DNA of 4,463 nt, taken from the IMG/VR virus record IMGVR_UViG_2684622772_000008; one strand, 5' to 3'. This document shows, in pieces, positions 1-4,463 of this stretch. The position numbers and the translations under genes are program-made. Numbering within the stretch: the stretch's first letter is position 1; each line of letters opens with the position of its first letter. Below the pieces are notes generated by a model that saw nothing but the letters and a program-made list of their open reading frames with translations, was not told where the DNA came from and did not search any database. This DNA is from a virus (taxonomy: Duplodnaviria; Heunggongvirae; Uroviricota; Caudoviricetes).

Positions 1-2
1 TT

Positions 3-753
3 TTCTGCTCATTATTAGCTCCTTCTGATGCCATTCTATTTCAGGAAGGAGTGTCCGTTAAACTCAGGCTACCTCAGGTTATTCGCTTCTGGGCATGGGC
101 GGATCAACAAATGATAGACGGTAATGCAGATTGTAACGCTCGCGGCGTTACAAAAAGTGCAATAGATCGCATCACTTTTATGTCTGGTTTTGCTGATGCG
201 TTAATTCAGGTTGGATGGCTGGTCGAAAATGACGGAGGGCTTTCTCTACCTAACTTTGAACGTCATAACGGAAAAAGCTCTAAAAAAAACGGGCGGTTAC
301 AAACGAGCGAGTAACAAAAATACGCGAACTGAAACGAAAAGGTAACGCTGCCAGCGTTACACAAACGGATCAAAAAGCGTTACCAGAGGAAGAGGAAGAG
401 GAAGATCTAAATACTGATCTCCCCCTCGCCAAAAACGAGCGTCTAAAAAATTCGAGCCGGAGGCTATTGAGCTGCCCGATTGGTTGCCGGAAACACTCTG
501 GCATGAGTGGGTCCGGTTCAGACAGGCATTGCGAAAACCGATTCGAACGGAGCAGGGCGCTAACGGGGCGATACGGGAACTGGAAAAATTCCGTCAGCAG
601 GGTTTTACACCTGAGCAGGTGATTCGACACAGCATCGCCAATGAATACCAGGGCCTGTTCGCGCCGAAAGGTGTTCGGCCTGAGACGTTGCTCCGACAGG
701 TTAACACCGTCTCGTTGCCGGACAGTGCGATCCCGCCAGGCTTCAGGGGGTAA
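3..753 (+). pseudogene. Phage replication/primosomal protein with DnaT-like C-terminal domain; 5' end upstream of window; frame broken twice at poly-A runs
   Basis: Three contiguous coding segments in three + frames. Segment 1 is open from nt 3 to TAA 312-314 (N-terminal domain; the GTG at 51 is probably internal). Segment 2 runs about 290-450 (charged linker, including EEEEEE from (GAGGAA)3 at 386-403). Segment 3 runs 418-753 and ends ...NTVSLPDSAIPPGFRG, matching the DnaT C-terminus as I recall it (...NTVSEPDSQIPPGFRG). Frame switches coincide with A8 at 282-289 and A6 at 445-450. TAA 751-753 lies 6 nt before the DnaC-like start, as in dnaT-dnaC operons. Confidence 0.6.
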
Positions 754-759
754 CGGACC

Positions 760-1186
760 ATGAAAAATATTGCGACAGGCGGCGTTCTGGAACGCATCCG
801 CCGACTGACCCCGCCACATGTAACCGCCCCATTCAGAACGGTAGCGGAGTGGCGCGAGTGGCAACTTGCTGAAGGCCAGAAACGTAGCGAGGAGATCAAC
901 CGCCTGAATCGCCAGTTGCGGGTGGAAAAAATTCTGAATCGCTCAGGCATCCAGCCGTTGCACCGTAAATGCTCGTTTGCGAATTACCAGGTGCAGAACG
1001 ACGGCCAGCGATACGCGTTAAGCCAGGCGAAATCCATCGCCGATGAACTGATGACCGGGTGTACAAATTTTGCGTTCAGCGGAAAACCTGGTACCGGGAA
1101 GAATCACTTAGCGGCAGCTATCGGGAATCGCCTGCTGAAAGACGGTCAGACAGTGATTGTGGTTACCGTGGCTGATGTTATGAGCG
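760..1186 (+). CDS. DnaC-like helicase loader (phage replication protein), N-terminal 142 codons only; 3' part lost in assembly gap
   Basis: ATG 760 with GGGGG at 746-750. The translation aligns along its length with E. coli DnaC as I recall it (NRSGI.PLH..CSF.NY; Walker A GKPGTGK at nt 1081-1101; ...VTVADVMS). The frame runs straight into the N-run at 1187. Confidence 0.88.
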
Positions 1187-1414
1187 NNNNNNNNNNNNNN
1201 NNNNNNNNNNNNNNNNNNNNNNNNNNNNNNNNNNNNNNNNNNNNNNNNNNNNNNNNNNNNNNNNNNNNNNNNNNNNNNNNNNNNNNNNNNNNNNNNNNNN
1301 NNNNNNNNNNNNNNNNNNNNNNNNNNNNNNNNNNNNNNNNNNNNNNNNNNNNNNNNNNNNNNNNNNNNNNNNNNNNNNNNNNNNNNNNNNNNNNNNNNNN
1401 NNNNNNNNNNNNNN
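1187..1414. other. Assembly/scaffold gap (228 N)
   Basis: Uninterrupted run of n characters; true length and content unknown. Confidence 0.99.
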
Positions 1415-2414: not shown

Positions 2415-3101
2415 ATGACCCCAATAAACATATTTATGACAGTTGCTGATTTCAAACGGCCCAAATTGGAGCTCCCAAACGGGGCAAACAAACTACTACT
2501 GCACTCTTGCTGTGCTCCATGTTCCGGTGAGGTGATGGAGGCGCTTCAGGCCTCGGGAATCGACTACACCATCTTTTTCTACAACCCGAACATTCATCCT
2601 CAGAAAGAGTATTTAATTCGTAAGGATGAGAATATTCGCTTTGCTGAACAACACGGCGTGCCGTTTATTGATGCTGATTACGACACAGACAACTGGTTTG
2701 AACGAGCCAAAGGAATGGAATGGGAGCCCGAACGAGGGATCCGTTGCACCATGTGTTTTGACATGCGTTTTGAGCGGACAGCGCTGTACGCCGCTGAAAA
2801 TGGTTTCAGTGTGATCAGCAGTTCACTGGGCATTTCACGCTGGAAAAATATGCAGCAGGTTAACGACTGTGGGCGGCGAGCCGTCGCGCATTATCCGGGC
2901 ATGGTGTACTGGGATTATAACTGGCGCAAGCAGGGCGGCTCGTCCCGTATGATTGAAATCAGCAAGCGCGAAAAATTCTATCAGCAGGAATATTGTGGCT
3001 GTGTGTATTCTCTGCGCGATACCAATCTACACCGCAAATCTCAGGGACGCCCTCTTATCAAAATTGGTCAACTCCACTACGGTAAAGAAGAGAAGGAGTG
3101 A
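2415..3101 (+). CDS. queH: QueH-family (DUF208) epoxyqueuosine reductase-like protein (228 aa)
   Basis: The translation contains [32 protein letters not shown] and C-terminal YCGCVYS, the conserved Cys-containing blocks I recognise as the QueH/DUF208 signature. TGA 3099-3101. No clear Shine-Dalgarno before ATG 2415; in-frame ATG 2436 and TTG 2466 are alternative starts. Confidence 0.82.
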
Positions 3102-3204: not shown

Positions 3205-3281
3205 TAGAGAAAAGCCCCAGTTAACATTACGCGTCCGGCAAGACGCTTAACATTAATCTGAGGCCAATTTCATGCTTTGCA
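3205..3281 (-). ncRNA. sok: Sok-like antisense RNA (antitoxin of the type I TA locus); ends approximate
   Basis: On the minus strand, -35 TTGCCT (plus coords 3310-3315), 17-nt spacer, -10 TAACCT (plus coords 3287-3292). This has the same position and orientation as the sok promoter in hok/sok loci, overlapping the mok-equivalent start region. The transcript would run leftwards through the 5-bp hairpin GCGUC/GACGC at 3231-3246. The 3' end is not defined by a clean U-tract. Confidence 0.4.
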
Positions 3282-3328
3282 CATGTAGGTTAGCCTCTTA
3301 CATGCCGAAAGGCAAGGAGAAGCAGGCT

Positions 3329-3484
3329 ATGAAGCAGCAAAAGGCGATGTTAATCGCCCTGATCGTCATCTGTTTAACCGTCATAGTGACGGCACTGGTA
3401 ACGAGGAAAGACCTCTGTGAGGTACGAATCCGAACCGGCCAGACGGAGGTCGCTGTCTTCGTAGACTACGAATCCAGGAAGTAA
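3329..3484 (+). CDS. hok: Hok/Gef-family type I toxin (51 aa, single transmembrane helix)
   Basis: AAGGAG 3314-3319, ATG 3329, TAA 3482-3484. Protein MKQQKAMLIALIVICLTVIVTALVTRKDLCEVRIRTGQTEVAVFVDYESRK has a hydrophobic helix and the TRK.LCE.R..G..EVA tail typical of Hok proteins. It is very close to E. coli HokD/RelF as I recall it. Leader and trailer RNA elements are also hok-like. Confidence 0.9.
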   Translation: MKQQKAMLIALIVICLTVIVTALVTRKDLCEVRIRTGQTEVAVFVDYESRK

Positions 3485-4059: not shown

Positions 4060-4413
4060 ATGGCACATATACAACTGGTCAAACAAACCTCTTCCGGATT
4101 ACTTCTCCCGGCGACGCCGGAGAGTTGCGATTTTCTGCATCAAATCAAAATAGGTGAGTGGATACACGCAGACTTTAAGCGTGTGTGTAACTACGCATTC
4201 CACAAGCGTTTTTTCAAACTCCTGCAACTGGGTTTCGATTACTGGACTCCGGTCGGTGGGGCGATCACGCCTCGCGAACGAAAACTGGTGTCCGGTTTCG
4301 TTGATTACCTGTGTGAATCAGTAGGCCGGGAACATACGCCAGCTCTGAGCGAAGCCGCAGAGCAATTGAGGTGTACTGGCAATAGCGGACACTACCATTT
4401 GTTCTTTTTTTAA
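4060..4413 (+). CDS. Hypothetical protein (117 aa as read); may be 3'-truncated or frameshifted at a T7 run
   Basis: GGAG at 4049-4052 is 7 nt before ATG 4060 (the ORF-track TTG at 4018 is less likely). The protein is MAHIQLVKQ...GHYHLFFF with TAA 4411-4413. The stop follows T7 at 4405-4411, and the adjacent frame is open from 4410 to the window end. Confidence 0.5.
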   Translation: MAHIQLVKQTSSGLLLPATPESCDFLHQIKIGEWIHADFKRVCNYAFHKRFFKLLQLGFDYWTPVGGAITPRERKLVSGFVDYLCESVGREHTPALSEAAEQLRCTGNSGHYHLFFF

Positions 4414-4463
4414 GCAGCCATCTGATGATATTTTTCCCTGAAGGCTGCCGGGGAGATATTCCC

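What the first reader, a model, noticed from the sequence alone, without database searches (positions are those of the whole stretch)
3..753. DnaT-like replication gene readable only across three frames, breaking at A8 and A6 runs
Coding potential is continuous from the window start to TAA 751-753 only if the frame shifts at 282-289 (A8) and again at 445-450 (A6). Correcting the second run from A6 to A7 gives ...NERLKKFEPEAIELPDW..., a seamless junction into the DnaT-like C-terminal domain. Two shifts, both in homopolymers, in a contig that also has an N-gap, point to indel error; a genuinely inactivated replication gene (cryptic prophage) is the alternative. Programmed frameshifting is unlikely with two sites in one gene.
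Basis: partly seen in the sequence, partly recalled or inferred. Interest (0 to 1): 0.45.

Follow-up and report, generated by a model that had tools for sequence, protein, structure and literature searches.

The report
Decayed prophage replication gene, Shigella sonnei
This is a genuinely broken phage replication-initiator gene in a defective prophage of Shigella sonnei, disabled by an IS600 insertion, a one-base slip in an A-run and a 10-bp deletion; it is not a sequencing error, and it is an ordinary example of Shigella genome decay.

Summary
I aligned the window to intact 261-262-aa homologues from E. coli and S. dysenteriae. The gene has three lesions.

- **IS600 insertion.** The first 35 codons are cut off by an IS600 insertion. 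Window 1-76 is the IS600 end, not coding sequence of this gene.
- **A-run.** Positions 282-289 are A8, where intact genes have A6 or A9.
- **10-bp deletion.** One copy of a TCCCCCT repeat plus its spacer has been lost at 420-426.

The A6 run at 445-450 is identical in every intact homologue, so it is not a lesion.

The lesions are not sequencing errors:
- All three are present in 10 of 10 independent S. sonnei assemblies I inspected, including 4.8-Mb contigs.
- The 87-aa ORF that spans the IS600 junction and the A8 shift occurs verbatim on 492 contigs.
- Other lineages carry intermediate states: A8 alone, A8 with the deletion, and A9 with the deletion.

The intact protein is a phage replication initiator with a DnaT-like C-terminal domain. 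It sits upstream of a DnaC-like loader gene (ydaV).

Verdict: a real, multi-hit pseudogene in a cryptic prophage. It is ordinary and of low interest.

The parts
1..76 (-). Left end of IS600 (terminal inverted repeat TGAGGTAGCCTGAG... read on the minus strand from 76 downwards, with the orfA start ATG at 12-10). It cuts the replication gene after codon 35. It is not coding sequence of this gene.
   Evidence: Matches thousands of IS600 copies annotated 'IS3-like element IS600 family transposase'. In S. sonnei L003 the full element is 1264 bp, 4763-6026, with orfA and orfB (HTH_Tnp_1, rve).
77..79 (+). GGT, the right-hand copy of the 3-bp target-site duplication made by the IS600 insertion (nt 105-107 of the intact gene).
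   Evidence: L003 reads ...GGGAAGGT[IS600]GGTTATTCGC..., against the uninterrupted GGGAAGGTTATTCGC in E. coli L001.
77..281 (+). Segment 1 of the initiator remnant (window frame 3), codons 36 to about 103 of the intact 262-aa protein. This is part of the N-terminal domain.
   Evidence: Identical to E. coli FDAARGOS_944 WP_038340159 except for one synonymous base at 236. Part of a full-length match to PHROG 2509 'replication initiation protein', E=1.2e-89.
282..289 (+). A8 homopolymer, frameshift lesion 1 (frame 3 to frame 2). Intact alleles have A6 (KK) or A9 (KKK).
   Evidence: A6 in E. coli L001 and L002, A9 in S. dysenteriae L013-15, A8 in 16 of the 25 related loci examined, as in the window. 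None of 5426 complete E. coli genomes has A8 or A9.
290..419 (+). Segment 2 (window frame 2), the basic and acidic linker region: RAVTNERVTKIRELKRKGNAASVTQTDQKALPEEEEEEDLNTDL.
   Evidence: The frame-2 translation is identical to intact residues 106-149.
385..405 (+). (AGAGGA)n hexamer tandem repeat encoding the poly-Glu stretch. There are 3 copies here and 2-7 in related strains. Changes are in-frame, so this is not a lesion.
   Evidence: Tandem Repeats Finder: period 6, 3.5 copies, 100% match. Copy numbers 2, 3, 4, 5, 6 and 7 across loci.
420..426 (+). Single TCCCCCT left by a 10-bp deletion between two direct TCCCCCT repeats (intact: TCCCCCTAAATCCCCCT). This is frameshift lesion 2 (frame 2 to frame 1).
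   Evidence: Alignments, allele table. No complete E. coli genome carries the deletion junction.
421..753 (+). Segment 3 (window frame 1): PPRQKRASKKFEPEAIELPDW...IPPGFRG, then TAA at 751-753. This is the DnaT-like C-terminal domain.
   Evidence: Frame-1 translation is identical to intact residues 153-262. PDB DnaT CTD 2ru8_A at E=9.5e-5 and full-length DnaT 9zbt_D at E=3.2e-4. 81% identical over 124 aa to the Rac-type YdaU protein of L007.
445..450 (+). It is unaltered and encodes KK in the ancestral frame.
   Evidence: A6 in all 22 loci that cover it, including the intact genes.
760..1186 (+). 5' part of ydaV, the DnaC-like helicase-loader gene immediately downstream. It runs into the N gap at 1187-1414. 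It is intact (248 aa) in complete S. sonnei genomes.
   Evidence: RefSeq annotation 'ydaV: ATP-binding protein'. Pfam IstB_IS21 and Bac_DnaA on the 248-aa product.

Best explanation
Window 77-753 is the 3' 86% of a phage replication-initiator gene belonging to a defective Rac-like lambdoid prophage of Shigella sonnei.

**The intact protein.** It is 261-262 aa in E. coli and S. dysenteriae. [quoted passage not shown] By inference from gene order and from DnaT biology, it marks the phage origin and hands over to the adjacent DnaC-like loader YdaV.

**What happened here.** In this lineage the gene is dead three times over:
1. An IS600 element inserted after nt 107, with a GGT target duplication. 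It separates the promoter, start codon and first 35 codons from the rest.
2. The A-run in the linker is A8. That is one base short of the in-frame A9 allele seen in Shigella relatives, and two more than the A6 allele of E. coli.
3. Ten bp were lost by slippage or recombination between two 7-bp direct repeats.

All three lesions are germ-line mutations fixed in the lineage, not assembly artefacts.

**Likely history.** Related strains carry partial combinations, which shows stepwise decay. The indels arose before the IS600 insertion, because strains with A8 and the deletion but an empty IS site exist.

**Shown versus inferred.** The lesions, their reproducibility and the domain homology are shown. 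The replication role, the order of events and the loss of function are inferred.
For: **Homology and lesions**
- The gene is colinear with single-ORF 262-aa homologues, with one synonymous difference outside the lesions.
- The neighbouring genes are in the same order as in E. coli FDAARGOS_944: ydaT, initiator, ydaV, DUF977, hypothetical, queH, hokD, a hypothetical protein (Pfam Rem), DUF1367.
- The IS600 end is identified by matches to annotated IS600 copies. The full 1264-bp element with its GGT duplication and the 41-aa 5' fragment is seen in L003.

**Reproducibility**
- The window is 100% identical to S. sonnei assemblies L003 and L004 on both sides of the N gap.
- A8, the 10-bp deletion and the IS600 junction are present in 10 of 10 independent assemblies.
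- The exact 87-aa junction ORF is on 492 contigs, in 481 blocks of the collection's index, named S. sonnei.

**Intermediate alleles**
- Intact N-terminus with A8 (113-aa ORF): 159 contigs, including S. sonnei 53G.
- A8 with the deletion and an empty IS site: L021-24.
- A9 with the deletion: L025.
- A8 without the deletion: L019 and L020.
- A9 intact: S. dysenteriae L013-15.

**Function of the intact gene**
- PHROG 2509 'replication initiation protein', E=1.2e-89.
- DnaT CTD hits.

**Context**
- IS and indel pseudogenes are pervasive in S. sonnei. About 12% of interrupted genes carry both an IS and another inactivating mutation (PMC7373316).
Against: - I could not inspect raw reads for the particular assembly that gave the window.
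- The single A9-plus-deletion contig (L025) is from one short-read assembly. Its A-run length could itself be an error.
- A8 and A9 each occur both with and without the deletion. This requires either recurrent slippage or recombination, so the order of the two indels is not resolved.
- Replication-initiator activity has not been shown experimentally for this protein. No Pfam family matches it.
- ydaV and the C-terminal ORF remain intact, so some residual function of the remnant is not excluded.
Confidence: 0.95

Rival explanations
1. Sequencing or assembly indel errors in homopolymers of an otherwise intact gene.
For: The contig is a draft with an N gap. One lesion lies in an A8 homopolymer. 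Homopolymer length errors are common on some sequencing platforms (general knowledge).
Against: - Identical lesions occur in 10 of 10 independent assemblies, from draft contigs of 55-72 kb to 4.8-Mb contigs.
- The junction ORF is on 492 contigs.
- The second lesion is a 10-bp deletion between direct repeats, not a homopolymer change.
- The third lesion is an IS600 insertion with a target duplication.
Confidence: 0.02
2. The A8 run is a functional recoding site. In the zero frame it forms the heptamer A_AAA_AAC, and a -1 ribosomal slip or transcriptional slippage there would restore the ancestral frame, giving regulated expression of the initiator.
For: - The frame change needed at 282-289 is exactly -1, from frame 3 to frame 2.
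- Slippage at A-runs of 8 or more is established in E. coli and Shigella (from my own knowledge, not tested here).
- In L019 and L020, A8 is the only lesion.
Against: - In the window's lineage the start codon and 35 codons are removed by IS600. A second, non-slippery 10-bp deletion shifts the frame again.
- The intact homologues examined (A6, A9) are single-frame genes, and none of 5426 complete E. coli genomes carries A8, so the two-frame layout is not conserved.
- No stimulatory structure was sought or found.
Confidence: 0.02
3. The three segments are separate small genes rather than pieces of one gene.
For: Gene callers annotate the fragments as separate hypothetical proteins, for example FORC11_0721 and FORC11_0720 and the 41-aa, 87-aa and 89-aa ORFs.
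Against: The segments are colinear and identical in sequence to one uninterrupted 262-aa ORF in E. coli and a 261-aa ORF in S. dysenteriae. The middle segment has no start codon of its own at its 5' end.
Confidence: 0.01

Closest known systems
YdaU of the E. coli K-12 Rac prophage type (DUF1376 replication-initiator-like protein upstream of ydaV)
   Same: It sits in the same position, between ydaT and the DnaC-like ydaV. The C-terminal 124 aa are 81% identical, including the ...VNTVSLPDSAIPPGFRG tail. RefSeq names one intact homologue 'phage replication initiator YdaU family protein'.
   Different: The N-terminal domain is unrelated. There is no DUF1376 or any other Pfam hit. The best PHROG is 2509 rather than 6451. 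The copy here is a pseudogene.
DnaT (primosomal protein I, replication restart), C-terminal ssDNA-binding domain
   Same: Residues 170-262 of the intact protein align with DnaT 92-179 (E=9.5e-5 to 3.2e-4), with a near-identical C-terminal PDSxIPPGFRG tail. An acidic linker precedes the domain, as in DnaT. The gene lies next to a DnaC-type loader gene.
   Different: It is not a DnaT orthologue: the NCBIfam DnaT equivalog scores 16 bits against a cut-off of 201. The N-terminal domain is different, and the gene is phage-borne rather than chromosomal.
IS-driven and indel-driven pseudogenes of Shigella (Hawkey et al. 2020, PMC7373316)
   Same: IS600 is one of the five IS expanded in all Shigella species. 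About half of S. sonnei pseudogenes are IS-interrupted, and about 12% of interrupted genes carry both an IS and another inactivating mutation. That is exactly the pattern here.
   Different: Nothing material. This is one more example, located in a cryptic prophage.
Lambda O / P replication module
   Same: It is a functional analogue: an initiator gene directly upstream of the helicase-loader gene, with candidate binding sites inside the initiator's own coding sequence (palindromes at 131-153 and 342-360).
   Different: I did not test homology to lambda O. PHROG 678 'replication initiation O-like' matches only part of the protein (residues 77-236 of 262), and more weakly than PHROG 2509. The loader is DnaC-like rather than P-like.

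Membership tests
Pseudogene (decayed copy of a known gene) | Colinear homology to an intact single-ORF gene | tested here: met
   Window 77-753 aligns end to end with 262-aa ORFs of E. coli. There is one synonymous difference outside the lesions.
Pseudogene (decayed copy of a known gene) | Disabling lesions relative to the intact gene | tested here: met
   IS600 insertion after nt 107, A8 against A6 or A9, and a 10-bp deletion.
Pseudogene (decayed copy of a known gene) | Lesions reproducible in independent assemblies, so not artefacts | tested here: met
   10 of 10 assemblies carry all three lesions. 492 contigs carry the exact junction ORF.
IS600 (IS3 family) insertion | Terminal inverted repeats TGAGGT..., about 1264 bp, orfA and orfB, 3-bp target duplication | tested here: met
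   L003 4763-6026 is 1264 bp with ends TGAGGTGTACTGG... and ...CTCAGGCTACCTCA, GGT duplicated, and HTH_Tnp_1 plus rve ORFs. Only 76 nt (5' end) and 97 nt (3' end) of two IS600 copies lie in the window.
DnaT (NCBIfam NF002770 equivalog) | Whole-protein score above the curated cut-off (201 bits) | tested here: not met
   16-17 bits, matching only the last 19 residues. It shares a domain with DnaT and is not DnaT.
DnaT C-terminal domain homologues | Significant sequence similarity across the DnaT CTD | tested here: met
   phmmer against the PDB: 2ru8_A at E=9.5e-5 and 9zbt_D at E=3.2e-4, over residues 170-262. No structure was predicted.
YdaU / DUF1376 family (Pfam PF07120) | DUF1376 N-terminal domain | tested here: not met
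   No Pfam hit at E<=0.01 for the intact 262-aa protein. The Rac-type neighbour in L007 does carry PF07120.
Programmed frameshift gene | Two-frame arrangement conserved among homologues, with an intact upstream ORF | tested here: not met
   The intact homologues examined are single-frame, and none of 5426 complete E. coli genomes carries A8. The upstream ORF is severed by IS600.

The most novel reading that the evidence does not exclude
The A-run in the linker of this prophage initiator may be a hypermutable contingency tract. A6 and A9 would be ON and A8 OFF, and A8 and A9 each occur both with and without the 10-bp deletion. Such a tract would toggle prophage replication competence. A8-only alleles (L019, L020) could be partly rescued by -1 slippage at A_AAA_AAC. 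Alternatively, the surviving DnaT-like C-terminal ORF together with intact ydaV may keep some activity in S. sonnei.
Probability: 0.05. Interest if true: 0.35.

Novelty: already known. Interest (0 to 1): 0.08.

Why it matters
It matters mainly as a correction. An apparent double homopolymer error turns out to be a real, fixed, three-hit pseudogene, so assemblies should not be polished to repair it, and annotators should mark it as a pseudogene rather than as three hypothetical proteins.

It also illustrates stepwise gene decay in S. sonnei, with indels first and IS600 later. It flags two length-variable tracts, the A-run and the AGAGGA repeat, that differ between strains. Otherwise it adds nothing new to what is known about Shigella genome reduction.

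Tried and rejected
- **Pfam scan.** Scanning the intact protein and the three window segments gave no family. The DnaT link rests on the PDB phmmer search and on a sub-threshold NCBIfam hit.
- **E. coli genomes.** I searched complete E. coli genomes for the A8 allele, the A9 allele and the deletion junction. None was found in 5426 genomes, so these genomes could not date the lesions.
- **Combinatorial alleles.** An exact-protein look-up of hypothetical combined alleles found no IS600 junction combined with A9 or A6. It did find an intact N-terminus with A8, and A9 with the deletion. Exact look-up depends on which start codon the gene caller chose and on the poly-Glu copy number, so the absences are weak evidence.
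- **Literature.** A search for YdaU found no mechanistic paper among the 15 of 64 hits listed. A search for an S. sonnei MLVA locus matching the AGAGGA repeat found nothing relevant.
- **Not attempted.** I did not predict a structure or run the large homology searches. The verdict did not depend on them, and the intact protein is not encoded in the window.
- **Programmed frameshifting.** I considered and rejected it (see rival explanations).

Full report
**What the window is.** The window matches a Rac-like lambdoid prophage region of E. coli and Shigella. In E. coli FDAARGOS_944 (locus L001) the gene order is ydaT, a 262-aa 'hypothetical protein', ydaV (DnaC-like ATP-binding protein), DUF977, a hypothetical gene, queH, hokD, another hypothetical gene (Pfam Rem), and DUF1367. 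The window carries the same genes in the same order. On both sides of its N gap the window is 100% identical to Shigella sonnei assemblies L003 (GCA_000815825.1) and L004. The proteins it encodes are named S. sonnei by their sources.

**Checking the observation.** Translating 1-753 in three frames confirms that homologous protein is read in frame 3, then frame 2, then frame 1. I aligned the region with two intact E. coli genes and with ten S. sonnei loci. The window differs from the intact gene in three ways.

1. **IS600 insertion.** Homology starts only at window 77. Window 1-76 is the end of IS600. In complete S. sonnei genomes a 1264-bp IS600 sits here, flanked by a GGT duplication, and the missing first 35 codons lie on its far side as a 41-aa stub ORF.
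2. **A-run.** Positions 282-289 are A8, where the E. coli genes have A6.
3. **10-bp deletion.** TCCCCCTAAATCCCCCT has been reduced to a single TCCCCCT at 420-426.

It encodes KK in the ancestral frame. The true ancestral junction is DLPLNPPRQKRASKKFEPEAIELPDW. It looked plausible because frames 1 and 2 are both open between about 418 and 620.

**Real mutation or error.** The 87-aa ORF at 51-314 begins inside IS600, crosses the junction and ends in the out-of-frame tail created by A8. It is present verbatim on 492 contigs, listed in 481 blocks of the collection's index, with a longest contig of 4.86 Mb, and is named S. sonnei. All ten loci fetched carry the IS600 junction, A8 and the deletion. 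They range from draft contigs of 55-72 kb to 4.8-Mb contigs. Sequencing error is excluded.

**Allelic series.** Exact look-ups and fetched contigs show intermediate states.

| Loci | A-run | 10-bp deletion | IS600 at codon 36 | State |
|---|---|---|---|---|
| E. coli L001, L002 | A6 | no | no | intact, 262 aa |
| S. dysenteriae L013-15 | A9 (extra Lys) | no | no | intact, 261 aa |
| L019, L020 | A8 | no | no | one lesion |
| L025 (one short-read contig) | A9 | yes | no | one lesion |
| L021-24 | A8 | yes | no | two lesions |
| window, L003-12 | A8 | yes | yes | three lesions |

- The 113-aa ORF with an intact N-terminus and A8 is on 159 contigs, including S. sonnei 53G.
- The IS600 insertion is therefore the latest event.
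- The A-run has changed more than once, or alleles have recombined. A8 is one slip from the A9 allele seen in Shigella relatives.
- Other S. sonnei-labelled contigs (L016-18) have the same prophage with an A9 allele. Contig L018 runs into an IS600-like end at about window-equivalent position 379, and contigs L016 and L017 end at that point. This is an independent hit on the same gene.
- None of 5426 complete E. coli genomes has A8, A9 or the deletion.

**What the gene was.** The intact protein matches PHROG 2509 'replication initiation protein' over its full length (E=1.2e-89). Its last 93 residues align with the C-terminal domain of DnaT (PDB 2ru8_A at E=9.5e-5, 9zbt_D at E=3.2e-4), with a near-identical PDSxIPPGFRG tail. 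Its C-terminal 124 residues are 81% identical to the DUF1376-type YdaU of a Rac-like prophage, while the N-terminal halves are unrelated.

No Pfam family matches it, and it falls far below the DnaT equivalog cut-off. It therefore shares a domain with DnaT and is not DnaT.

[quoted passage not shown] By analogy, and given the adjacent DnaC-like ydaV, I infer a modular phage initiator. It would have a variable origin-recognition domain, a basic and poly-Glu linker, and a DnaT-like domain that prepares ssDNA for helicase loading. This function is inferred, not shown.

**Rivals.** Programmed frameshifting deserves a mention because A8 forms A_AAA_AAC in the zero frame and the needed shift is -1. 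The IS600 truncation and the second, non-slippery deletion rule it out here, and the intact homologues examined are single-frame genes. The idea that the segments are separate genes is refuted by their colinearity with one ORF.

**Comparison and novelty.** IS600 is one of five IS expanded in all Shigella species. About half of S. sonnei pseudogenes are IS-interrupted, and about 12% of interrupted genes carry both an IS and another inactivating mutation (PMC7373316). This locus is a textbook case. Its fragments already sit in public genomes as hypothetical proteins, for example FORC11_0720 and FORC11_0721, and SS53G_2911. I rate it as already known and of low interest.

**Residual uncertainty.**
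- I did not see raw reads for this particular assembly.
- The order of the two indels is unresolved.
- The initiator function is inferred from homology and gene order.
- Residual expression of the C-terminal ORF or of ydaV was not tested.

Noticed in passing
window 4367-4463 (and 1-76): The 3' end of the window is the other end of IS600 (TGAGGTGTACTGGCAATAGCGG...), in the same orientation as the copy at the 5' end. It truncates the DUF1367 gene (ATG at 4060) after about 102 of 199 codons. The contig is therefore the unique sequence between two IS600 copies, which is typical of a draft Shigella assembly.
   Followed up: partly
window 1187-1414: The 228-N gap inside ydaV stands for 318 nt in complete S. 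sonnei genomes (L003 7137-7454). The gap length is therefore an estimate, not a length-preserving mask. ydaV is intact (248 aa) in those genomes.
   Followed up: yes
window 385-405: The hexamer repeat (AGAGGA)n encoding poly-Glu varies from 2 to 7 copies among E. coli, S. dysenteriae and S. sonnei assemblies (3 copies here). It is a genuine in-frame VNTR that might serve as a strain marker. I found no matching MLVA locus in the one literature search I ran.
   Followed up: partly
window 131-153, 342-360, 376-384: There are palindromic GTAACGC...GCGTTAC sites inside the initiator coding sequence. CGTTAC occurs 8 times in the window against 1.46 expected by shuffling, and 5 of the 8 fall within 133-383. 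They may be initiator-binding sites or an origin lying within the gene, as in lambda O. The Rac-type ydaU does not share the pattern.
   Followed up: partly
L016 and L017 (contig ends), L018 about 1839-1868: Other S. sonnei-labelled assemblies carry the same prophage (99.9% identical upstream) with an A9 allele and an empty site at codon 36. Contig L018 runs into an IS600-like end at about window-equivalent position 379, and contigs L016 and L017 end at that point. This is an independent IS hit on the same gene.
   Followed up: partly
L007, L010-L012 (upstream of the IS600, 1-5962): In several draft S. sonnei assemblies the DNA upstream of this IS600 is a different Rac-type prophage (kilR, sieB, DUF1376 ydaU, truncated ydaV) rather than the gene's own 5' stub. 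This suggests either IS600-mediated recombination between two prophages or scaffolding across the repeat.
   Followed up: no
L003 4273-4578 against L001 3398-3820: The neighbouring ydaT-family toxin gene is shorter in the S. sonnei loci (101 aa) than in E. coli (140 aa). This hints at further decay of the prophage immunity and replication region.
   Followed up: no
window 2415-3101 and 3272-3484: The prophage carries an epoxyqueuosine reductase gene (queH) and a hokD-type type I toxin gene as cargo. Both appear intact in the window.
   Followed up: no
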